Below are positions 13,250 to 53,992 of a stretch of 64,000 nucleotides of DNA, piece after piece; position 1 is the stretch's first letter; every line of letters begins with the position of its first letter. Origin of the DNA: Octopus vulgaris (taxonomy: Eukaryota); assembly GCA_951406725.2 (NCBI GenBank), contig OX597821.1, positions 47,802,001 to 47,866,000 of the forward strand, in the 5' to 3' direction. The notes under the pieces were generated by a model. That model ran no database searches and had not been told where the DNA came from. It saw only the letters and a program-made list of their open reading frames with translations. The position numbers and the translations under genes were made by a program.

Positions 13250-13562
13250 TGCTGTTGAGCGAACGGTCTTCGTCCCAGAGCTTGCAAGATGGGAGAAGTC
13301 CGAATCGTGGTCCTTTGCTATTCGTAAGACCCACAGAAGAGAAAGCAGGTCAACCCCCCGACACTGAGAACATCGACGGATGGATGAATGCGCATCCAGG
13401 CTCAGCGGTTGTGTAGGAAGTCGGGGACAAGAAAAAGGAAGAAAGAGTGAGAGAAAGTTGGAGCGAAAGAATACAACAGGGGTCGCCACCACCCCCTGCC
13501 GGAGAAACCGCGATCCTCCGACCGCGAGTCCGCTGCCCTAACCATTGGGCCATTGCGCCTCC
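13250..13562 (-). mobile_element. SINE family B, tail type 2 (internally deleted)
   Basis: Head GGAGGCGCAATGGCCCAATGGTTAGGGCAGCGG; the tail matches 38080-38270. Confidence 0.88.
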
Positions 13563-13787
13563 ACTACTGTTGCTGTTTTCTTTGCTGTACATTTTCAGGA
13601 GAAGAAGTACATGGTGAGAAAGTGAAGAAAGGGATTCATACCACTGCTAAATCTAAATGAGGGTGAGAGATTCTAAAATGTTGCATAACTTGTGGAGGAA
13701 GTTTTAGCATCAACTTACTCCTTACTTTGAATGTATTCATGTAAAAATACCTTGTTATATGTACAAACATACACACAGACATATTTA

Positions 13788-13886
13788 ATAACAGTTTGAC
13801 TCAGCTCCACACAGCTTTAAGTTTCGTGAACATGTCTTGTGCCCCATGAAATTTCAAGTCATGTGGAGCAGAGTCAAACTGTTATA
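13788..13886. mobile_element. Small MITE-like inverted repeat
   Basis: ATAACAGTTTGACTCAGCTCCACA ... TGTGGAGCAGAGTCAAACTGTTAT. Confidence 0.65.
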
Positions 13887-13907
13887 AAATGCATGTAACT
13901 ACAACCA

Positions 13908-14067
13908 AATGTATTTACATTATTTACATTATTTACAATTGACAGATATTTGTCCTCATCTTGTTTGTTGTTAACACAACGTTTTGGCTGATATACCCTC
14001 CAGTCTTCATCAGGTGTCTTAGGGAAACTTCGAACCTGGGTTCTCATTCCTAATGTATTTTTTTGAT

Positions 14068-14100
<33 letters not shown>
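13908..14100 (-). mobile_element. 3' half of the Penelope-like tRNA/(TAA)n/hammerhead element, split by the Dong insertion
   Basis: Highly similar to 39755-39895; hammerhead motif at 13971-14018. Confidence 0.85.
13971..14018 (-). ncRNA. Minimal type I hammerhead ribozyme motif (this copy has GAAA changed to AAAA)
   Basis: GACAC-CTGATGA-AGACTG..loop..CAGCC-AAAA-CG-TT-GTGTT. Confidence 0.7.
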
Positions 14101-14274
14101 TTTTTTTTCTTCTTTCAAATTTGCTTCCATTTCTTGCCGAGTGTCTTCCCAACTCCTAGGGCAAAGAAACTCATAGTATACATTGGTAGGCCATTAAACC
14201 AAACTCAGTAGTTCGTTCATTTTTTTTTTTTTTTTTTTTAAAGTTAAATTAAAATACATGAGCAGCAACAGTTC

Positions 14275-16704
14275 TCACATCGACAATGCTCTTCTCAATA
14301 CGTGTGATGTACCAGTTAAGACAATCTTTTGCACTTCTTGCAGGGATGGTAAGCCAGGGATCATTCTCATATAATTTTCGGTTCCCTTCTTGATCATTCC
14401 TAGTGCTCCTACGATCACTGGTATTGTAACCGCCTTGAGATGCCACATTTTCTCAATTTCAATGAGTAGGTCTTTACATTTTCTGAGCTTGTCAAACTCT
14501 TTCGCTGAGATATTATGATCACAGGGGATGCTCATGTCGATCAATAAGCAAACTTTATTGTTTTGGTCTTTCACAACAATATCTGGTTTATTGGCCTTGA
14601 TGGTTCGGTCTGTATGTACTGGAAAGTCCCACAGAATGGTTACATTTTCTCCTTCAGTTACAGCCTCAGGGTGGTGATTATACCACTTGTCGGCAGTTTT
14701 GATATTGTAATGCCGACTTATTAGCCAGTGGAGATATTGGCCAACTCTGTCATGTCTTAATTTATACTCCACTGGTGCTAAGACTTTACATCCAGAGATT
14801 AGATGGTCCACTGTTTCAATCATGTCGTTGCAGAATCGGCATTTTGGGTCTGCTCCATTTTTCATCACATTGGCCTGGTAGTTCCGGGTTAATAGGCTTT
14901 GATCTTGAGCAGCCAGGATGAAACCTTCGCTCTCTGCTTTTAGCCCTGAGCTCCGTAGCCACTGATGGGTTTGCTTCTGGTCAACATCAGCTTGTTTGCT
15001 GCGGGTCACATATTTGCTGTGCAGAGGTTTCTCCTCCCACCTATCAGCCAATTGCTCGTGCGCTTTCTTCATTGCCATCATTTTCACCTTCTTTGCAACA
15101 ATAGTTGCCGTACTTCCCTCGGGTTGTTCAGTTTGGGTATCCTGCACGAGATCAATAGCAAATTTTTTGCTTTCCTTTATGATAGAATGAAGCTTCTTTC
15201 GTCTCTTGTGATTTTCCACGAGCTTTAGCATCCAGTCATTCGATATTTCGAGATATTTGGCCAGTCCAATTGTGGTTGTTTTGTAAACTAGTTCAAATTG
15301 GATCAGGCCTCGACCTCCTTGGGCTCTGGGAAGGTAAAGGCGATCTACGTCTGCCTTTGGGTGGTGCATCCTATTGCAACTCAGCAGCTTGCGTATTTTT
15401 CTATCTATATTCTTTACTTCACTCATATTCCAGTTCAACACATTGTAGCTATAAGTAACAACTGGAACTGCTAAGGAATTTATAGCTAGAACCTTGTTAC
15501 GTGCATTTAGTTCAGATTTCAGGACTGCACGAACTCTCCTATAACATTCCTTCCTGATTTTCTCTTTCATGCTCGCATGCTGAATACCAGAGCCTTCATT
15601 TATCCTTAAATATTTGTATGTTTGTTCTTGCTCAAGCTCTCTTATGACTGTGTCAACATCTAACATGACTGAATTTGTGGTCTTCACTTTCCCTTTCTGG
15701 AAAGTGGCCTTGGCACACTTCTCAAGTCCAAACTCCATCCCGATGTCATCGCTGAATGCTTTCACGGTGCGCAATAGGCCTTCAAGTTCATTATTGTCTT
15801 TACCATAAAGTTTTAAGTCATCCATATAAAATAGATGGCTTATTTTTTTATTGGCAATTTTATACCCATACCCTGTTCTGTTTAATTCACTTGTAAGGGG
15901 TATTAGGGCTATGCAGAATATTAAAGGTGAAAGTGAGTCACCTTGAAAAATTCCACAGTTGATGTTTATATTTTCTGAGGCAAGTACTCCATTAGAGTGG
16001 TATAATTGGAGATTCGTATTCCACAACGACATATTGTGCTTCAGGAAGTTTGAAATCACAGAGGAAATTTTGAAGATGTCCAGCGATCTCAAGATCCATG
16101 GATGCAGTATACTGTCGAAGGCCTTTTTGTAGTCAATCCATGCGGTGCTGAGATTTCTGCGCTTGTTGTGACAGTTCTCAAGGATCATACGATTGATTAG
16201 CAGTTGATCTTTGCATCCGTAAGAGCCTCGGCGGCACCCTTTTTGTTCAATGGGGAAAATATCGTTCTTCTCCATGAATGCATATGTTTTCTCTGCCAGG
16301 ATAGATGTTAGGATTTTATACGTGGTGGATAGACAGGTTATAGGCCGATAGTTTTTTGGAAGGTTGGTTTCGTTATTCTTTGGGAGTAGGTAAGTAATGC
16401 CACTTGCTAACCATTCAGGTGTTTTCTTTGGGTCTCTCATAATTCCATTGAGCAGCTGAACTAGCTTACCGTGTGCGCATGGGAGCGATGCGAGCCAGAA
16501 ATTCGGCACCCTATCTTTACCGGGGGATTTCCAATTATGGGCCTTCGTGAGTGCCTTTCTTAGGTCTGCTATTGTGATGTCTTCCCATGCTTGTTGTTGT
16601 AAATTTTGGTAGGATCCTTCAGTTTGTATAATCCAGTCTGCATTTATGTTGTACGTCTTCTTGTCACTCCAAATCCTTTTCCAAAAGTTTTGAACTTCTT
16701 CCAT
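14275..16704 (-). CDS. R4/Dong RT plus restriction-like endonuclease (uninterrupted 809-aa C-terminal part of a frameshifted ORF)
   Basis: NYRPITCL, IDYKKAFDS, GIFQGDSLSP, HLFYMDD, CRFC-H-C, RHD, NKPDIVV. Confidence 0.9.
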   Translation of the reverse strand: MEEVQNFWKRIWSDKKTYNINADWIIQTEGSYQNLQQQAWEDITIADLRKALTKAHNWKSPGKDRVPNFWLASLPCAHGKLVQLLNGIMRDPKKTPEWLASGITYLLPKNNETNLPKNYRPITCLSTTYKILTSILAEKTYAFMEKNDIFPIEQKGCRRGSYGCKDQLLINRMILENCHNKRRNLSTAWIDYKKAFDSILHPWILRSLDIFKISSVISNFLKHNMSLWNTNLQLYHSNGVLASENININCGIFQGDSLSPLIFCIALIPLTSELNRTGYGYKIANKKISHLFYMDDLKLYGKDNNELEGLLRTVKAFSDDIGMEFGLEKCAKATFQKGKVKTTNSVMLDVDTVIRELEQEQTYKYLRINEGSGIQHASMKEKIRKECYRRVRAVLKSELNARNKVLAINSLAVPVVTYSYNVLNWNMSEVKNIDRKIRKLLSCNRMHHPKADVDRLYLPRAQGGRGLIQFELVYKTTTIGLAKYLEISNDWMLKLVENHKRRKKLHSIIKESKKFAIDLVQDTQTEQPEGSTATIVAKKVKMMAMKKAHEQLADRWEEKPLHSKYVTRSKQADVDQKQTHQWLRSSGLKAESEGFILAAQDQSLLTRNYQANVMKNGADPKCRFCNDMIETVDHLISGCKVLAPVEYKLRHDRVGQYLHWLISRHYNIKTADKWYNHHPEAVTEGENVTILWDFPVHTDRTIKANKPDIVVKDQNNKVCLLIDMSIPCDHNISAKEFDKLRKCKDLLIEIEKMWHLKAVTIPVIVGALGMIKKGTENYMRMIPGLPSLQEVQKIVLTGTSHVLRRALSM

Positions 16705-17915
16705 GGGAGGGGGTCTTTAACGGTTACTTTCTCCTTCCCTATTTCTCTGTAGAATTTTTTGGCATTGGATGTGAACAGCTTATTTTGCTTGTAAAACTTG
16801 TTTCTCTTCTCAAATCTTCGTATTCTTTGGGCTTTTGCTTGGACTAAATTTTCTCTTCATCTTTCTTCCTGTTCTGGATCTTACATCATTTCCACATATT
16901 AGTTCACTTAATATTGATATTTCCCCTCTCATAAATTCAATCTCTTTTTCAATTTTACTTCTCCAGGTTTGATTTCTTCCCAGGTTTTGTTTTCTTTGTT
17001 TTTCGGGGGCATACAGCTGGTTTCAATTGCCCTAGCAGAAGCGTAAATAATTTCATTTAACTCAGTAAAATCAGGTTTTAATTCTCGTATTATTTCATTT
17101 GTTACATAGTTGCCAATTTGGATTTGTTTTTTATTTTGGTTTGTATTTGAGAGTTTATGAAGTGGTTCTCTATCATTCATACTTGTATGTCTTACAACTT
17201 CAAGCGTATTCAGGATTTTCTGCCTCATTTCTGCCATAGACTCTCTGTGTTCTTCAGCAAATGCGAGATCTTCAGTTACTGTTGTTTTTTCGTTTTCCTG
17301 GCTATCTTTAACAGGTACAATAGAATTTCTTGTATCTTCAGGCCTTTGCGTACTTTGGTCAGATGGCAGTCTTTCAATTAAGCCTCGTGGCGGGCTATAC
17401 TGTTCATCTGATTCTTCATTTCCTTTGTGTCTTATATTTATGTCATTTTCCGTTGCGTGCTTGATCGCGCTTATTTCACTGTCTGTGAGTCTGTTATTTC
17501 TAAGGATATCCCTCCTCACATTTGCTAATTTGTTCTCGTCTAAATAGGGCCTACTGTCTTGATTCCGTGTTCTCCATATACTGTAAGAGTTTGCGGTGTG
17601 TCTCTCTGAGATGGCCTACCTAATGCATAGTAATAAGCGTATATTACTTCTTTATACTCTTCTCGGGTCCATTTGTTCCGCTTACATTTTTCTTTCTGTG
17701 GTGGTTGTGGTGGTGAACTTGGAGGGCTCGAGTTGGGGATTTCCCGTTCAAGTGACCATCCATGTCCGTATTCGGAGAAGAGTTTGTGCCAGTTGATGAC
17801 TTTTCGATCCCAGGCTGGCTCTTCCCAGATTAACCATAGGACAAGCAATTTGGTATACTGATTTAGTTTTCCTTTTAGTTTCCAAAAACATTTTGGTGCT
17901 ACGATAATGTTATCA
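16705..17915 (-). pseudogene. Frameshifted N-terminal part of the Dong ORF (Myb-like motif)
   Basis: ORF pieces 17540..17848 (KWTREEYKEVIYAYY) and 16929..17519 are colinear with the RT ORF. Confidence 0.75.
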
Positions 17916-18807
17916 TTTTTTAGCTTTGATTGGCTCGTGGGGAGACGGCCATCATTGCCGTTACAATTATAATCGTACCATTATAGCAGCCGTAGTCGGC
18001 TTATTATTGTTATTATCATCACCATTACCATCACTATCATCATTATCACCACCATTACCATCATTATTATCATCATCACCATCACCATCACCACCATCAT
18101 CATCAATGATATTGTTTTATGTGTAGTCACAGCAGTATCTTATTATTGATATTTTTGTTTTTTTATCATTATCGCCATCACAGTAGTGTCTGTCTGTCTC
18201 GTTGGCTGGCTTGGTGGTTGGCTGGCTGACTGTCTTCAACACCAGAGTTCTTGCCTGTCAAATAATACTTTCTTTGTGTTGGTTGAACTCTTTGAGTGTG
18301 TGTGTGTGTAGATAGATAGATAGATAGATTATCAGCACTATTACTATCATTCTTATCATCATCACCATCATCACCATCACCATCAGTGATTTTTTTTTTT
18401 TTTTAGGTGGGGTCCTATCGGTCAAAAAATGTTTACTACTATTAGGCTTAAGAAAAATTAAGGAAGGGCTGTTCTGTATTGTTTGTGAATAGAGAAGTTG
18501 TGTTCGGCCAGAGAGAATCTTAGCATCATCATTTTTTTTTGTTTTTTTCCATGTGCGTTTGTGTTATTGCAATAAAAAGTGTTTGTATATTTCCTGTAAG
18601 GTAATATTGTGGAGGTTGAAGTTGACTTTTCTAGAGATGTTTGTATGTCCAGTTAGAAGAACAGGTGTGTTTTTACAATAAAAAGTATGTTTACATATAT
18701 ATTTGAATATTCAGGGAGGAAGCAAAGAAAAGTCAGATTTTCATAGAAAGTTTTAGGGTTTTGTAAGTCCACAAAAAGAAAAGCGTGATGTTTTTAGAGA
18801 GAAGAAA

Positions 18808-18808
<1 letters not shown>

Positions 18809-18857
<49 letters not shown>

Positions 18858-19043
18858 AGTCACTGCCTGGAATCGAACTCAGAATCTTGGAGTTAGTAGC
18901 CCATGGGCATATGGCATAGTGGTTAAGAGTGCGAGCTACTAACCCTAAGATTCCGAGTTCAATTTCAGGCAGTGACCTCAATAATAATAATAATAATAAT
19001 GATAATAATAATAATATTAATAATAATGATGATGATGATGATG

Positions 19044-19084
<41 letters not shown>

Positions 19085-19085
19085 T
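18809..19085. mobile_element. 5' part of the split Penelope-like element: (TAA)n, partial tRNA head (-), then inverted full tRNA head (+) and (TAA)n
   Basis: 18853-18901 is the reverse complement of 18933-18983; A-box TGGCATAGTGG and B-box GAGTTCAATTTC; matches 40031-40097. Confidence 0.8.
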
Positions 19086-19087
19086 AA

Positions 19088-19215
19088 TTCGTTTATTGGC
19101 CACAAGGGCTAACAAAAATCAATTAAAACATAAAGGGACAAAACACAGGACGAAAGTTACAAAGGGTTTTGTCCATTTGAAAAAGTCTGTGTACAAAAGC
19201 AGGATAAAATTACAC
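19088..19215 (-). mobile_element. Short LINE-type 3' end fragment
   Basis: TTAGCCCTTGTGGCCAATAAACGAA terminus next to (TTA)n; resembles the tail of the family C SINE at 12348. Confidence 0.4.
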
Positions 19216-19217
19216 TG

Positions 19218-19841
19218 GTCTGATCACTTCACAGGAAATATGACATTTTTTGTGGTAGATCCTGCTGGTTTCCTTGAATGTTTCTTAACCCAGGATAAGT
19301 GTTGGCTTCATCCCTTTGAGCCAGAGACAAAGAGACAATTCATGCAGTGGAAACACCCCTCCTCACCTGCTCCTAAGAAGGCCACAGTTATTTCCTCTAC
19401 AGGGAAGGTGATGGCCTCTCAGTTTTCTGGATGCAAATGGCATTGTGTTTATTGACTATCTCACAAAAGGGCCACAACATCAATGGAGAGTACTAAGCCA
19501 TCTTGCTGAAACAGTTACAGAAAACTATCAAGACCAAACACCCAGGAAAACTGATAATGCTCCAGCACACAAGTTGTTGGTCTCAATGGCTGCTGTGCAT
19601 GATGACTGTGGCTTTGAACTGGTTGATCAACCTCCCTGTTTTCTTGATCTGGGTCCATCTATTCCCCAACATGAAAAAAACGCTTGGATTGAAACCAGTA
19701 TCACAATGATGGTGACATCATATCTGGTGCTGATCAATTTTTTGACCAACTGGATAAAAGCTTCTACACCACTGGGATCCAAGCACTGCAACAGCGATGA
19801 GAGTATCTTGGTCAGCAGGTGAACTTTTCAGCTGACCTACG
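19218..19841 (+). mobile_element. Degraded mariner transposon, 3' part
   Basis: WLHPFEPETKRQFMQWKH..GKVMA and DNAPAH..ELVDQPP motifs; right TIR GAACTTTTCAGCTGACCTACG followed by TA. Confidence 0.85.
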
Positions 19842-24509: not shown

Positions 24510-24601
24510 GTGTGTGTGTGTGTTTCTTGTGTGCATGTATGTATGTGTTTATGTATGTATATATGCATGCATGCATGCATGTATGTATGTATGTATGTAT
24601 G

Positions 24602-24660
<59 letters not shown>

Positions 24661-24915
24661 ATGTATGTATGTATGTATCTATCTATCTATCTGTCTGTCT
24701 GTCTGTCAGTCTGTCTGCCTGTCTGTCTGTATGTATGTATGTATCTGTCTGTCTGTCTGACTGTCTGTCTGACTGTCTGTATGTCTGTATGTATGTATCT
24801 ATCTATCTATCTATCTATCTATCTACCTATCTATCTGTATGTATGTATGTATGTATGTATGTATGTATGTATGTATGTATGTATGTATGTATGTATGTAT
24901 GTATGTATGTATGTA
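24510..24915. repeat. Compound (TATG)n/(TATC)n/(TGTC)n microsatellite
   Basis: Directly visible; continues after the CR1 element at 27840-27960. Confidence 0.95.
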
Positions 24916-27744
24916 GCAGATGCGGAGTTACACATACCACAGTATGCTGTACTACGGACCGACAGGAAAGAAAGGAGTCATGGAGGTGTTGCTATGTACA
25001 TCCGTGAGGACCTCACACCCCAGGTCCTCTTGTCATACTCAAACTCGGTGTGTGACACACTAATTGTACATATTAGGCAACTTGATGTAGTTGTGTGTGC
25101 TACATATCGCCCTCCAGATGCCCCAAGCCATGTGGGCAAGTTCGAAGACTGCCTTATAAAAATAGAAGAAATTCTAACCACATTAGAACAACACATAGGT
25201 GTGCTTCTTATGGGAGACTTCAATCTGCCCAATGTCAGATGGCCCGAGGGCCTTTCTCTCCCAGGAATGACAAGATGTGAACGAGGACAGGCGAGGTCCC
25301 TCCTGAACTTCATCAACACCCTGTACATGGAGCAGGTAATACTCCAACCAACCAGGGCAGGTAACACACTGGATCTCTGCTTCACAAATGACATGGATCT
25401 CATCCATAATGTGAAAGTGACACCGACACTACTCTCGGATCACAACATGATAGAGCTGACCATGTACGGGCCAAAAGAGAGCACGGACATGCAGCCTACA
25501 AGAAACCCTCAAAATCTTTCCAGCTTGAACTACCATAAGGCAAACTGGAAACAAATTGAGAAAGAGATCCTCAAACAAAACTGGCCTGAATGTCTCTCCT
25601 CGCCAGACATCGACGTGAAACTTCAACAATTCATGTCTGTAATGCAAGCCATATGCTACAAATGTGTCCCAGAGAGAAAGGCCACTGTACACAAGAACAA
25701 AATCCCCAGAGAGAGGAAAATTTTAATGAGACGGCGTACGAAATTTTCAAATCGCCTAAACAAACAAATTGAAAGCAGTGAAAAGTCCCGCCTAAAAATA
25801 AAACTGTTGGAAATCGAAAAATGTCTGCAACTCTCCCATGAAAAAGAAAGAGCAGACAAAGAAGCCTGGGCTATAGAAAACATAAAATCTAACCCCAGAG
25901 CTTTCTACAGGTATGCCAAAGAAACAGCTACAGTGCACTGTAGAATAGGGCCACTCCTCGAAAAGGATGGCACACTTACAGGAAAACCAATGAGGGTAAG
26001 TGAAATACTGAATGAGCAATTCAAGAGTGTTTTCACTCCACCCCTTGGGCATCTCCAAATCACCAATCCAACTGACTTTTTTACCACTGCAGATATAAAA
26101 TCAGAGGCGGTGACGATAGATTACATCGATATAAAGGAAGACGATGTAACCAAGGCTATAGATGAAATGAAAACAGACTCAGCTACTGGCCCCGATGGAT
26201 TCCCGGCAATCCTCCTAAAAGCATGTAAGAGAGTCCTAGCAAGACCACTGCAGTTCCTCTTTCAGAGCTTCCTTGCAGCTGGCAAACTTCCAGTAAAACT
26301 GAAGGAAGGTAAAATATGCCCCATTCATAAAGGAGGTAGCAGAGCGGAAGCCAAGAACTATAGACCTATCTCTCTGACCTCACACATCAGCAAGGTCATG
26401 GAACGAATAGTCAGAAGGAAGCTGATCACCTTCCTTGAAGAGAATGACTTGCTGCCCGACACCCAACATGGTTTCCGACCAGGGAGAAGCTGTTTAACTC
26501 AGCTCCTACAACACTATGACTGGGTGCTGAAACGGCTGCTCAACCACTCAAATGTGGAAGTGATATATCTCGACTTTGCAAAGGCCTTTGATAAAGTCGA
26601 TCATGGAATGATATGTCACAAACTGCGTGATCTCAACATAGTTGGAAAACTGGGAGAATGGCTTCATGACTTTCTGAAGGATAGAAGTCAGGTGGTAGTA
26701 GCCAATGGGGCCACCTCCATTAACACACAAATAGTGAGCGGTGTTCCACAGGGCACTGTTCTGGGACCACTACTGTTCATAATGGCCCTCTCAGACATGC
26801 CCTCAGCCACGCAGAGAGCCACGATCACAAGTTATGCAGATGATACAAAAGTCTCACAGGCAATACAGAACCCTGAGGACACTAAACACCTGCAATGTGA
26901 GCTGGACGAAATATACAAGTGGGCTGAAAAGAATAGCATGCAGTTCAATGCTGGAAAGTTTCAAGCTTTATACTATCAGCATGCAAAACTGAATGCAATA
27001 CCCAATGAATACACTGGACCCGGAGGGATTGCAATCCCAGAGGCACAATCAGTGCGTGACCTGGGTATTCACATGAGTGATGACGCGACCTTTCATGTAC
27101 ATGTTGCTAAACTGACAATGAAATGTAGACGGCTGGCTGGATGGATTCTTAGAACCTTTAGAACAAGAGAACAAGAAACCATGATGGTCCTCTGGAAGAC
27201 ACTTGTCCTAAGCCACTTTGACTATTGCTCTCAGCTATGGTCACCATCCAGTGTCAAGTTGATCACAGAACTTGAGGCGATCCAACGAAGCTACACAAAG
27301 AAGATAGCCTCTATGCAGAATGTAAGCTACTGGGAAAGACTCAAGAGATTAAAATTATATTCCCTGGAGCGTTGGCGGGAAAGATATGCCATAATATACA
27401 TCTGGAAGATCCTGGAGGGAAGTGTCCTGAACTTTGGCATCGAGAGTTACGCAAATGCCAGAACTGGGCGCCACTGCGTGGTGCCTAGGACTCCAAACCT
27501 GCCATCAAGATGTAGGACAAGATTCTGTGATAGCCTGGGCTTCCGAGGCCCACAGCTCTTCAATATCCTCCCGAAGAACCTGAGAGACCTGCATGGGGTG
27601 GATACAGATGTCTTTAAAATGAAGCTGGATCTCTTCCTGTCAGGTGTCCCAGATGAACCAACTTCACGGCAGGAGGGGCAGATGAGGGCAGCTGCATCGA
27701 ACTCTCTAATGCACCAAATAGCAGTTGCTAGAAAGCCTCCATGA
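24916..27744 (+). CDS. CR1-type ORF2 (partial AP endonuclease plus reverse transcriptase), uninterrupted but 5'-truncated
   Basis: GGVAMY, YRPP, GDFN, LDL, SDH (APE); YRPISLTS, QHGFR, YLDFAKAFDKVDH, GVPQGTVLGPLLF, YADD, DYCSQLWSP. Confidence 0.9.
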   Translation, partial: ADAELHIPQYAVLRTDRKERSHGGVAMYIREDLTPQVLLSYSNSVCDTLIVHIRQLDVVVCATYRPPDAPSHVGKFEDCLIKIEEILTTLEQHIGVLLMGDFNLPNVRWPEGLSLPGMTRCERGQARSLLNFINTLYMEQVILQPTRAGNTLDLCFTNDMDLIHNVKVTPTLLSDHNMIELTMYGPKESTDMQPTRNPQNLSSLNYHKANWKQIEKEILKQNWPECLSSPDIDVKLQQFMSVMQAICYKCVPERKATVHKNKIPRERKILMRRRTKFSNRLNKQIESSEKSRLKIKLLEIEKCLQLSHEKERADKEAWAIENIKSNPRAFYRYAKETATVHCRIGPLLEKDGTLTGKPMRVSEILNEQFKSVFTPPLGHLQITNPTDFFTTADIKSEAVTIDYIDIKEDDVTKAIDEMKTDSATGPDGFPAILLKACKRVLARPLQFLFQSFLAAGKLPVKLKEGKICPIHKGGSRAEAKNYRPISLTSHISKVMERIVRRKLITFLEENDLLPDTQHGFRPGRSCLTQLLQHYDWVLKRLLNHSNVEVIYLDFAKAFDKVDHGMICHKLRDLNIVGKLGEWLHDFLKDRSQVVVANGATSINTQIVSGVPQGTVLGPLLFIMALSDMPSATQRATITSYADDTKVSQAIQNPEDTKHLQCELDEIYKWAEKNSMQFNAGKFQALYYQHAKLNAIPNEYTGPGGIAIPEAQSVRDLGIHMSDDATFHVHVAKLTMKCRRLAGWILRTFRTREQETMMVLWKTLVLSHFDYCSQLWSPSSVKLITELEAIQRSYTKKIASMQNVSYWERLKRLKLYSLERWRERYAIIYIWKILEGSVLNFGIESYANARTGRHCVVPRTPNLPSRCRTRFCDSLGFRGPQLFNILPKNLRDLHGVDTDVFKMKLDLFLSGVPDEPTSRQEGQMRAAASNSLMHQIAVARKPP

Positions 27745-32312: not shown

Positions 32313-32540
32313 TATATTTCACTTATGCCTTGTGAGACTAATAACCAGGTGTGGAACTCAGTATACATATGCTTCAGAACAAAGTGTTAGATGAGTACAG
32401 AGAGGTAATAAGTAAAGGAGATGACAAATCATCTCCTTTACTTATTACCTCTCTGTACTCAACTAACACTTTGTTCTGAAGCATATGTATACTGAGTTCT
32501 ACACCTGGTTATTAGTCTCACAAGGCATAAGTGAAATATA
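32313..32540. repeat. Near-perfect palindrome with 112-bp arms and a 4-nt loop
   Basis: Arms 32313-32424 and 32429-32540, loop CAAA, about 2 mismatches. Confidence 0.95.
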
Positions 32541-39058: not shown

Positions 39059-39796
39059 TACCAAACAGATCGTTTGGTATCAATTTTTCATTTATGAAGT
39101 AATGGAGCACAACGCACATAGAATTTGTATTACCAAGTAAGTTTTTCTATATACTTGTGTGACTCTCTTTCTTGCCTTCATTCTTTTCCCTTTTCTTTCT
39201 CTCACTCTTTCACTTTTATTCTAGCCTTTCTACTTATTCCTTTTCTCTCTCTCCCTCTTGTATTCCTAACCTTTCTCCTTTCTCGTCATCCCTTTCCCTT
39301 TTTTTCTTTGTCGCTCTCTCTCTCTCTCTCTCTTGCCTGCTACTCTCACATGGCCTGAGGCCAGTTCCTCTTTTCCTTCCTCTCTTACGCTGGTCCCATG
39401 GCTGACCAATCACAAATTCTCTGTCTCCCTGTTCCCCATTCCTCAAGACATATTTTAAGCCTTATCCACTATCTTCATCTCCTTGTTTTGTTCAACTATT
39501 CATCCTTGTACACTGCCCTAAATCAAACTCACTGTTATTTTGCTTGTTTTGTTTTGTTTTTTGCTCTCATCCCTAATTCTCAGCAAGAAATTTTTTTTTT
39601 TGCAGGCACCACCAGTTGGGAAGCACTCAGTCTTATCATTAAACTGATGAAAAATTACAGACCTTCTGTTTGTCTCCTGTTTGTTTTTACATTCAGTATA
39701 CATTATGTCGTTTGTTTATTTACCATACATTTTTCATTATATATATATATATACATTAGTTACATTTGATGGATATTTGTCCTCATCTTGTTTGTT

Positions 39797-39843
39797 GTTA
39801 ACACGTTTCGGCTGATATACCCTCCAGCTTTCATCAGGTGTCT
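39797..39843 (-). ncRNA. Minimal type I hammerhead ribozyme motif (3-nt deletion at the cleavage site/stem I in this copy)
   Basis: GACAC-CTGATGA-AAGCTG-GAGGGTATAT-CAGCC-GAAA-CGT-GTT. Confidence 0.72.
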
Positions 39844-39943
39844 TGGGGAATTTTCAAACCTGGGTTCTCATTCCTAAGGTATTTTTCGATGTTGTCGTTG
39901 TTGTTGTTGTTGTTCTTCTTTTTATTATTATTATTTTTATTAT

Positions 39944-39995
39944 TTCCATGCTAGCATGGAAAGCGGACGCTAAACGATGATGATGATGATGATTA
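39944..39995 (+). mobile_element. Extremely truncated RTE 3' end inserted in the (TAA)n tract
   Basis: CCATGCTAGCATGGAAAGCGGACGCTAAAC(GAT)n, matching the RTE terminus at 39009-39058. Confidence 0.8.
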
Positions 39996-40030
<35 letters not shown>

Positions 40031-40036
<6 letters not shown>

Positions 40037-40097
40037 CCTGGAATCAAACTCGGAATCTTGGGGTTAGTAGGCTGCGCTCTTAACCACTATGCTATAT
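40031..40097 (-). promoter_or_regulatory. tRNA-derived Pol III internal promoter (A/B boxes) inside the Penelope-like element
   Basis: TAGCATAGTGG (A box), anticodon-like arm, GAGTTTGATTCC (B box). Confidence 0.7.
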
Positions 40098-40117: not shown

Positions 40118-40323
40118 TTATAAAACTAATATTTTCCTATCCGTCCTTAATACCAGTTCCCATATGCTACTCATATCTGTACTTGGTCTGCTTAGGAGGT
40201 TGTTGTATCCTAGCATATGTACTGTTTCTTTTAATTTTCCTATTTTCCAGTGGTGTTCTCTGTCTATTATTTTAACTTCATCCCAAAGCTGTTTATCTGA
40301 ATCTTGTCCCCATATCTGTTCAC
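40118..40323 (-). pseudogene. C-terminal fragment of Penelope-like GIY-YIG endonuclease ORF
   Basis: Manual translation QIWGQDSDKQLWDEVKIIDREHHWKIGKLKETVHMLGYNNLLSRPSTDMSSIWELVLRTDRKILVL*, fitting the PLE C-terminal pattern W..VKIID.E..W..RK.KE..H...N.L.R....W..L. Confidence 0.75.
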
Positions 40324-40494
40324 TTCAATTCCCTTTATAGCCACTCTTTATCCTGCTGACTTGGTTCTTGGTAAATATATTGGAGTGTAAGTTCAAATCA
40401 ATTTGAGGTCTACTATGTGTTTTCCATAATGAGAGACTCTCGCTATGATCTGTTGACTCTCCTTTTACATATATATAAATATATATATATATAG

Positions 40495-52913: not shown

Positions 52914-53992
52914 TGAGGGTGGGCTGGAAAAGTACATAGGCTGACTATGAAGGAGTGATGCTAAAGCTGTGAAATCTTGCATGCATTAATTTCAACTTGT
53001 TTTATAAATAAATGTATTGTTTCGTTCCATATAGACTGACATCTAACTCTTCAAAGAAGACTTCAAAACTTGCTATTAGCGACCTCTTTTGAAAATGGAC
53101 AAAATTTGGTATCATGGTGTTATCAAGTACCTGCAGGAAAAGGGTTTAGCTGACAACTTGCTGCATTAGGGGATGACTGTTCATCACACGGTGATGGATG
53201 CAGGCGATTGATTCTACATCAAATAGCCAATGTTATTAGCATATTCTGTGAGAGAGTTGAGAATATTCTGTACAATGAACTTAACATGTTTTCTGATACC
53301 TGGTCAAAAGTGCATCAGGCTGATCACATCACTGGGAAATCAGAAATTGTTTGAAGCAGAACCAGCAGGTTTCCTTGAACATTTCCTAACCTAGTATGAA
53401 ATTTTGAGTTCCTCAGTATGAGTCAGAGACAAAGAGACAATCCATGCAGTGGAAACACTCCTCCTCACCTGTTTTTACAGATACAAAAGGCATTGTGCTT
53501 ATTGACTATCTTTAAAAGGGTTACACCATCAATAGAGAGCACTATCCCAGCTTGCTGAGACAATTATGAAAGGCTATCAAGACTAAACACCAAGGGAAAC
53601 TGACGAAAGGGGTACTGTTTCATCAGGACAGTGCTCCAGCACACAAGTCCTTGCTTTCAGTGGCTACTGTGCATGACTGAAGCTTTTGAACTGGTTGATC
53701 AGCCTCCCTGTTCTCCTGATTTGCCTCCATCTGGCTATTGTCTGTTCTCCAACATGAAAAAACACATGTTTGAGAACCAGTATTGCTGTGATGACGACGT
53801 CAAATCGATCGTGATGACTTTTTTGAACAACAACAAGATGAAAGTTTGTTCCCCAATTGCATCCAAGCACTGCAACACTGATGGAAGAAGTGTGTGGACA
53901 GCAAGGGGAGACTATGTTGAAAATTGAACCTCATTCAGTCACATTCAATGAGAATATCTCAGTCAACCTATGAACTTTTCAGTCATCCCCCA
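52914..53992 (+). mobile_element. Degraded mariner transposon with both TIRs
   Basis: TIRs TGAGGGTGGGCTGGAAAAGTACATAGGCTGACT / AGTCAACCTATGAACTTTTCAGTCATCCCCCA; PPCSPDLPPSGY corresponds to the YSPDLAPSD motif. Confidence 0.88.

What the first reader, a model, noticed from the sequence alone, without database searches (positions are those of the whole stretch)
13908..18985. Full-length Dong/R4 element inserted into the (TAA)n of the tRNA-hammerhead element
Seen: removing 14101-18808 rejoins the hammerhead tail (13908-14070) to the (TAA)n and tRNA head (18809-18901), reproducing 39755-40097. In that second copy the same tract holds a ~50-nt RTE 3' end (39944-39995). Established: Dong elements target (TAA)n repeats. 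Inference: this element family disperses (TAA)n landing pads used by other LINEs (2 of 2 copies here). The nesting also fixes the Dong 5' end and shows a ~0.9-kb 5' UTR.
Basis: partly seen in the sequence, partly recalled or inferred. Interest (0 to 1): 0.7.

Follow-up and report, generated by a model that had tools for sequence, protein, structure and literature searches.

The report
Dong retrotransposon nested in Penelope repeat
A broken, 5'-shortened copy of a known TAA-seeking jumping gene sits in the TAA repeat inside the end repeat of another known jumping gene, and such end repeats are hit no more often than other TAA repeats, so this is an ordinary nested insertion.

Summary
(1) The host is not a stand-alone tRNA-hammerhead element. 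It is the pseudo-LTR of a Penelope-like element (RT + GIY-YIG), present here as an inverted pair. The scan had already found this on other DNA (e1-8669850). (2) The Dong copy is not full length. 17950-18808 is Dong 5' UTR, but other copies run 0.8-0.9 kb further to a shared 5' end; the UTR is 1.8-1.9 kb and the window ORF is frameshifted. (3) Dong shows no preference for this host. The pLTR tail follows 2 of 99 Dong 3' ends against 7 of 87 random (AAT)n tracts (odds ratio 0.24, CI 0.02-1.29). 39 of 44 pLTR heads outside the window are uninterrupted. The 'RTE' tail occurs 50 times per Mb and is not TAA-specific. A weak form survives: pLTRs supply about 8-9% of (AAT)n tracts, and Dong uses them (five more nested copies).

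The parts
13912..14070 (-). 3' part ('tail') of a Penelope-like pseudo-LTR, left arm of an inverted pair
   Evidence: 82% to 39738-39941; profile hit 14061-13920; the same sequence follows the GIY-YIG ORF end and precedes the ORF start in other loci
13973..14018 (-). Minimal type I hammerhead motif (5-bp stem I, 5-bp stem II, palindromic stem III); A instead of G at core position 12 (13985), so likely inactive
   Evidence: 21 of 57 family copies keep all 11 scored core letters; no Rfam hit
14072..14100 (-). (AAT)n tract downstream of Dong, 3' share of the split target
14101..18808 (-). Dong/R4-type non-LTR retrotransposon, 4,708 nt, 5'-truncated by 0.8-0.9 kb
   Evidence: 94-97% to other copies; truncation
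14275..17763 (-). Single ORF (RT, CCHC knuckle, PD..D endonuclease), broken by frameshifts near 17739, 17608, 17003 and 16714 and a 53-nt deletion at 16846
   Evidence: an uninterrupted 1,208-aa frame exists in L138; the same differences show in contigs of four public runs (tables 4 and 7)
17764..18808 (-). Remnant of the Dong 5' UTR; it begins inside a ~450-580-nt tandemly repeated UTR unit
18808..18855 (-). (AAT)16 tract upstream of Dong, 5' share of the split target
18857..18904 (-). 3' half of the tRNA-like head of the left pLTR arm (B-box side only)
   Evidence: head profile positions 35-82 of 83
18900..18978 (+). Complete tRNA-like head of the inverted right pLTR arm
   Evidence: head profile positions 4-82; 84% to 40097-40010; not called as a tRNA gene by ARAGORN
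18980..19084 (+). (AAT)n tract of the right arm; no pLTR tail follows it in the window
19085..19200 (-). 3' end of another young repeat family that ends in (TTA)n, opposite polarity to Dong; family not identified
   Evidence: 40 scored copies at 96-100%; 14 of 16 fetched copies have (TTA)3 within 45 nt downstream
39748..40097 (-). Second pLTR copy: head 40097-40036, tract, tail 39885-39748
39944..39995 (+). ~50-nt 3' end of a very abundant (GAT)n-tailed repeat; RTE origin not tested
   Evidence: 50 hits in a random 1 Mb, none abutting a TAA tract
40118..40460 (-). Degenerate 3' end of the Penelope ORF (GIY-YIG C-terminal part) running into the second pLTR head
   Evidence: homologous loci extend into RT; ESM Atlas top hits are GIY-YIG clusters at 0.95-0.96

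Best explanation
A 5'-truncated, frameshifted Dong/R4-type LINE lies in the (AAT)n tract inside one arm of an inverted pair of Penelope-like pseudo-LTRs, and it likely got there by ordinary TAA-specific target-primed reverse transcription with no preference for this host. Steps: (1) A Penelope-like element left two 5'-truncated, back-to-back 3' ends, each built as tRNA-like head, (AAT)n, hammerhead tail (anatomy shown; insertion route inferred from PMC8557442 and PMC11167929). (2) Dong's endonuclease cut the left arm's tract and reverse transcription stopped 0.8-0.9 kb short of the 5' end (truncation shown; cleavage inferred from known Dong biology). (3) The other two pLTR tracts in the window took unrelated short 3' ends. 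pLTRs supply about 8-9% of the genome's (AAT)n tracts and receive about 2-7% of Dong copies, so they are passive, proportionally or under-used targets. Tails of other Dong-like families, a ~550-nt TAA-flanked non-coding element and an abundant SINE-like repeat supply more of Dong's sites.
For: Host: GIY-YIG-like ORF end runs into head-(AAT)n-tail; RT with YVDD upstream; GIY-YIG clusters are the top Atlas hits; the (AAT)n + hammerhead part also precedes the ORF start in L322 and L324; 16 of 29 tail loci have an inverted arm within 800 nt; 20 of 62 3' ends carry the optional ~35-nt extension. Order of insertion: both host halves flank Dong here and in L130, L133, L134, L135 and L174. Truncation: a shared 5' end after (AAT)n in the 30 loci; element length 5,482 nt in L123 against 4,708 here. 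No enrichment: 2 of 99 against 7 of 87, Fisher p=0.085, OR CI 0.02-1.29; 2 of 78 against 8 of 87, p=0.10; 1 of 28 and 2 of 30 in two further 5' sets.
Against: The samples are small and not fully random: 70 of the 99 Dong ends come from the first 64 Mb of one chromosome, out of 3,869 exact matches; 29 are top BLAST hits. A block of 20 listed ends that I did not fetch contains one known nested copy (L130). The only exact match to this Dong family in the random Mb (L174) is itself nested in a pLTR, and all 3 pLTR arms in the window are interrupted. The baseline has a wide interval (7 of 84: 3.4-16%). Pfam and NCBIfam gave no GIY-YIG hit. No empty allele of this locus was seen.
Confidence: 0.85

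Rival explanations
1. One reading: the head-(TAA)n-hammerhead family is a preferred landing pad for Dong and other LINEs.
For: Six nested Dong copies with both flanks (window, L130, L133, L134, L135, L174), of which three were fetched because of their flanks; 3 of 3 arms in the window interrupted; a second family nested in pLTR tracts in L113 and L372.
Against: 2 of 99, 2 of 78, 1 of 28 and 2 of 30 against a baseline of 8-9%; 39 of 44 heads uninterrupted; the (GAT)n-tailed repeat abuts TAA in 0 of 50 random copies.
Confidence: 0.07
2. Dong under-uses pLTR tracts, for example because they are short or because Dong returns to tracts already expanded by Dong-type tails.
For: All point estimates lie below baseline (2.0%, 2.6%, 3.6%, 6.7% against 8-9%); binomial P=0.018 for 2 or fewer of 99 at 7.5%; the ~550-nt TAA-flanked element follows 15 of 99 Dong ends against 3 of 87 random tracts (p=0.011, post hoc).
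Against: The Fisher tests are not significant (p=0.085, 0.10); 1 of 11 Dong-like ORF ends in the random Mb is followed by a pLTR tail, as the baseline predicts.
Confidence: 0.35
3. Head and tail come from two different pLTR copies, or the arrangement arose by recombination between (TAA)n tracts, or a truncated Penelope end inserted into Dong's tail.
For: Both junctions are simple repeats, so no target-site duplication can be read; tails without a head follow other elements' TAA tails (L014, L023, L028; L322); the right arm lacks its tail.
Against: Head and tail flank Dong in the right order and polarity, as in five other loci; with about 11-13 tails per Mb two independent halves in register are unlikely.
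Confidence: 0.07
4. The host is an independent SINE-like element that borrows Penelope machinery.
For: Most copies are short and carry no ORF; the head has A-box-like (12 of 22) and B-box-like (9 of 22) motifs (consensus motifs recalled).
Against: The second window copy and the 29 ORF-selected loci join the head directly to the ORF's stop codon with variable 5' truncation. Some head-start copies could still be separate Pol III transcripts; not tested.
Confidence: 0.15

Closest known systems
Dong (Bombyx mori), DongAg, DongBg: TAA-targeting elements of the R4 lineage (PMC3812793 passages; PMC3774820 passages and section 16)
   Same: Inserts in (TAA)n; single ~1,200-aa ORF with RT, CCHC and PD..D endonuclease; fixed 5' end directly after the TAA tract. 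Dong-R4 is reported as the LINE group with most recent insertions in Octopus vulgaris (PMC13282606, Table 1 passage).
   Different: 1.8-1.9-kb 5' UTR with an internal tandem repeat and microsatellites. An HDV-like ribozyme is shown for B. mori Dong but was not established here. No tree with a named Dong or R4 sequence could be built.
Penelope/Poseidon-type PLEs with minimal type I hammerheads in the pLTR (PMC4209133 part 1 of 4; PMC11167929 parts 1-2 of 4; PMC8557442 passages)
   Same: RT followed by C-terminal GIY-YIG, hammerhead at the pLTR-ORF junction, inverted 5'-truncated arm, optional 30-40-nt tail.
   Different: The pLTR begins with a tRNA-like segment and holds an internal (AAT)n tract. 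I found no paper describing this, but earlier notes of this scan did.
Microsatellites born from retrotransposon tails and targeted by site-specific LINEs (PMC3812793 passages)
   Same: One element supplies the repeat that another targets.
   Different: Here the tract is internal to a pLTR and not a 3' tail; use is proportional or lower, not preferential.

Membership tests
Dong / R4-lineage RLE LINE | Single long ORF with RT | tested here: met
   1,208-aa open frame in L138 with RVT_1 E=2e-29; the window copy is the same ORF in pieces
Dong / R4-lineage RLE LINE | C-terminal CCHC knuckle and PD..D / K..KY endonuclease; no AP endonuclease | tested here: met
   Motifs at aa 1020, 1104 and 1137 of L138; no Exo_endo_phos hit; best PDB relatives are R2 proteins, E=7e-25
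Dong / R4-lineage RLE LINE | (TAA)n target | tested here: met
   98 of 99 3' ends; tracts upstream of most 5' junctions, by eye
Dong / R4-lineage RLE LINE | Placement in the R4 clade by RT phylogeny | not testable with these tools
   None of the 120 listed homologs is named Dong or R4; PMC309301 not held
Dong / R4-lineage RLE LINE | HDV-like ribozyme at the 5' end | tested here: inconclusive
   Conserved 5' motif in 30 loci; no Rfam hit; MFE z about -0.2; copies too alike for covariation; absent from the truncated window copy
Full-length Dong copy | Reaches the family's shared 5' end | tested here: not met
   Shared end lies 0.8-0.9 kb upstream of the 18808 junction
Penelope-like element (EN+), pLTR | RT followed by C-terminal GIY-YIG endonuclease | tested here: met
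   RVT_1 E=0.002 on an 88-aa piece; GIY-YIG clusters 0.95-0.96; family on 15-24% of members, so a lead backed by the motifs; Pfam/NCBIfam did not hit the EN piece
Penelope-like element (EN+), pLTR | Repeat found both after the ORF and before the ORF start | tested here: met
   (AAT)n + hammerhead part precedes the ORF in L322 and L324; a head upstream of an ORF start was not seen
Penelope-like element (EN+), pLTR | Inverted 5'-truncated arm and optional 30-40-nt tail | tested here: met
   16 of 29; 20 of 62; window 18857-18978
Penelope-like element (EN+), pLTR | Poseidon versus Neptune subclade by phylogeny | not tested
   Poseidon-like by domain order and motifs as recalled; no tree built
Minimal type I hammerhead | Core CUGANGA / GAAA..UH with stems I and II | tested here: met
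   Family majority fits; stem pairs kept in 39-52 of 57 copies; the window copy lacks G12
Minimal type I hammerhead | Covariation or selection on the motif; cleavage | tested here: inconclusive
   Core conservation 0.88 against 0.86 for all columns; activity not testable
Independent tRNA-derived SINE | Own 5' start at the tRNA head, no link to an ORF | tested here: not met
   Head follows the Penelope stop codon at 40118 and in L092-L120; ARAGORN finds no tRNA gene
RTE 3' end (39944-39995) | Link to an RTE ORF | not tested
   Only abundance and flanks were examined

The most novel reading that the evidence does not exclude
This genome has a (TAA)n economy: a Penelope element with a tRNA-type (possibly Pol III) head has spread about 35,000 internal (AAT)n tracts, a tenth of all such tracts. 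These and the tails of several Dong families form hubs where Dong, a ~550-nt non-coding Dong passenger and an opposite-strand (TTA)n family pile up. A Dong nested behind a pLTR head would be transcribed from that head and freed by its own 5' ribozyme, so the pLTR would give Dong a promoter as well as a site.
Probability: 0.15. Interest if true: 0.6.

Novelty: new member of a known kind. Interest (0 to 1): 0.25.

Why it matters
As it stands it is an ordinary nested insertion of two known retroelement kinds. Its use is practical: it gives the real 5' end and the 1.8-1.9-kb UTR of a young, abundant Dong family, and a first estimate of where its TAA targets come from. It would matter more if pLTR heads proved to drive transcription of nested full-length Dong copies (L130, L339 and L348 have a full Dong 5' end behind a head), or if the ~550-nt element proved to be a Dong-mobilised passenger.

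Tried and rejected
Empty allele: contigs of 4 public runs laid on 13560-19300 were short and dominated by other repeat copies; joints that skip ~4.9 kb have 18-35 letters on the short side and do not reach the unique flank, so no verdict. Rfam gave no hammerhead, tRNA or HDV hit in the window, in L013 or at the Dong 5' end. ARAGORN found no tRNA. Pfam and NCBIfam did not recognise the GIY-YIG piece. A genome-wide count of Dong ends followed by the pLTR tail could not be made, so samples were used. The first 5' junction mapping stopped at an internal gap of the reference for 21 of 29 loci and was redone. The pooled 5' figure (6 of 136) includes duplicate loci and one by-eye positive, so the sets are reported apart. 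An HDV-like fold of the Dong 5' end could not be fixed by hand or by MFE. The ~550-nt element has no match to 60 Dong-like proteins. Xiong and Eickbush 1993 (PMC309301) was not held; Kojima and Fujiwara 2004 was seen only as a citation; no supplements were read (Fig. S2 of PMC3774820 bears on the ribozyme).
Full report
1. Observation. The window is G000:C8:47802001-47866000 of a 2.8-Gb genome; size and repeat content suggest an octopus (inference). Between them, 14101-18808 is a minus-strand LINE bounded by (TTA)n tracts. The left head is only the 3' half of the head, and a complete head sits back to back with it on the plus strand at 18900-18978, followed by its own (AAT)n.

2. The host is a Penelope pseudo-LTR. 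Next to the second copy, 40118-40460 translates into the end of a GIY-YIG-like domain whose stop codon lies about 20 nt before the head. The 29 other loci fetched with that junction show the same order, ORF end, head, (AAT)n, tail (output partly cut), and the longest extend upstream into an RT with YVDD. The Atlas places the 140-aa end piece with GIY-YIG clusters at 0.95-0.96; Pfam and NCBIfam do not recognise it. In L322 and L324 the (AAT)n and hammerhead part also precedes the ORF start. 16 of 29 tail loci have an inverted arm and 20 of 62 3' ends carry an optional ~35-nt extension. These are the hallmarks described in PMC8557442 (passages) and PMC11167929 (parts 1-2 of 4). The hammerhead fits the minimal type I form of PMC4209133 (part 1 of 4). 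21 of 57 copies keep all 11 scored core letters; the window copy lacks G12, and core conservation is no higher than the rest of the tail. An exact 13-mer of the tail occurs 12,380 times and is present in 4 of 13 tails of a random Mb, which suggests roughly 35,000 tails. Earlier notes of this scan reached the same identity; I had tested it before reading them.

3. The Dong copy. A sister copy has an open 1,208-aa frame with RT, CCHC and PD..D motifs and no AP endonuclease; the nearest solved relatives are R2 proteins. 98 of 99 3' ends are followed by (AAT)n. This fits Dong, a TAA-targeting element (PMC3812793, passages) of the R4 lineage (PMC3774820, passages); no tree with named references was possible. 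An exact 3' 21-mer occurs 3,869 times. The window copy differs from two sister copies by 33 substitutions in about 3,420 nt, and from three by four 1-nt deletions and a 53-nt deletion; contigs of four public runs show the same differences. 17950-18808 is shared with other copies, so it is UTR. But of 29 copies fetched with 17620-18010, 11 align up to 18808, and those examined at 10 kb carry more Dong sequence upstream, with a tandem repeat of the 18808-18463 unit. L123, L128, L129 and L130 reach a shared 5' end directly after (AAT)n, and the 30 loci fetched with that end confirm it. It lies 0.8-0.9 kb beyond the window junction. The UTR is 1,769 and 1,918 nt in two copies against 1,045 nt here. 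The nesting therefore marks a truncation point.

4. The landing-pad test. Baseline: 100 random 10-kb stretches hold 87 (AAT)4+ tracts; 7 have a pLTR tail downstream and 8 a head upstream; weighted by AAT units the shares are 134 and 155 of 1,498. Dong sample: 29 top BLAST hits plus 70 of the first 100 listed exact matches on C1. I left out listed ends 31-50, one near-duplicate and the last nine; the skipped block contains L130, a known nested copy. Result: tail after 2 of 99 3' ends (Fisher p=0.085; OR 0.24, CI 0.02-1.29) and head before 2 of 78 resolved 5' junctions (p=0.10; a third, L082, has a 12-nt head remnant by eye). Two further 5' sets gave 1 of 28 and 2 of 30, with a few duplicate loci. 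Enrichment above about 1.3-1.7-fold is outside the intervals. Against my reading: the one exact Dong match in the random Mb (L174) is nested in a pLTR, and all three arms in the window are interrupted. From the host side, 35 of 38 heads in ORF-selected loci and 4 of 6 in the random Mb run straight into their tail; two carry a clear LINE insertion (L113, L174). Upstream of Dong's 5' tracts the common neighbours are a SINE-like repeat (12 of 78, against 12 of 87 random), tails of other Dong-like families (clusters of 9, 4, 3 and 2) and a ~550-nt element (5). Ten of 11 Dong-like ORF ends in the random Mb have an (AAT)n tail, one followed by a pLTR tail.

5. The second copy. The ~50-nt insert is the end of a (GAT)n-tailed repeat found 50 times in the random Mb. 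One of the 50 has a TTA run within 90 nt and none abuts one. It is no evidence of TAA targeting, and its RTE origin was not tested. The right arm's tract is followed by the 3' end of a third, young family in the opposite polarity; 14 of 16 fetched copies end in (TTA)n and one (L372) is nested in a pLTR tract.

6. Mechanism and verdict. Penelope insertion left an inverted pair of pLTR ends; Dong later cut one (AAT)n tract and was copied short. Five other loci show both host halves around a Dong (L130, L133, L134, L135, L174; three were fetched because of their flanks). No target-site duplication can be read in a simple repeat, and the empty allele could not be tested. The strong form does not. 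Dong-R4 and Penelope are both reported as recently active in Octopus vulgaris (PMC13282606, passages). My searches found no paper on a tRNA-like head or an internal (AAT)n in a pLTR, or on pLTRs as Dong targets; the library lacks most subscription journals and Repbase. bioRxiv 10.64898/2026.07.22.740005 was only term-searched (no hit for tRNA or octopus). Novelty: new member of known kinds. Interest 0.25.

Noticed in passing
L137 3' flank; L145, L216, L235, L143: A ~550-nt non-coding element flanked by (AAT)n on both sides, variably 5'-truncated. It follows 15 of 99 Dong 3' tracts against 3 of 87 random tracts (p=0.011, post hoc). Candidate Dong-mobilised passenger.
   Followed up: partly
L331-L360, full-length Dong 5' ends: After (AAT)n come 0-10 variable purine-rich letters and a fixed start; L345, L346 and L122 carry short tandem duplications of the 5' end. 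Possible HDV-like ribozyme, as in B. mori Dong; unproven.
   Followed up: partly
window 19085-19200 (-); L113, L145, L308, L361-L376: Young (96-100%) family with a polyadenylation-like signal and (TTA)n end, inserting in the same tracts in the opposite polarity to Dong; not identified.
   Followed up: partly
L130, L339, L348: Full-length Dong 5' end directly behind a pLTR head and (AAT)n, where the tRNA-like head could act as promoter.
   Followed up: no
L122, L132, L133, L140, L244/L245, L256/L257: Head-to-tail tandem Dong copies: Dong inserts in Dong's own (AAT)n tail.
   Followed up: partly
window 24511-27744 (+): Open frame with AP endonuclease and RT domains, apparently intact LINE.
   Followed up: no
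window 13783-13890: Imperfect 108-nt palindrome just left of the pLTR tail.
   Followed up: no
window 19220-19600 and 53320-53674: Two related fragments that look like mariner transposase by eye (family name recalled).
   Followed up: no
window 32356-32497: Long near-perfect hairpin (weak Rfam MIR6027 match below threshold); probably a MITE-like inverted repeat.
   Followed up: no
L125, L126, L127 (C31, C31, C30): Three Dong copies share several kb of flank, so they are segmental duplicates.
   Followed up: no
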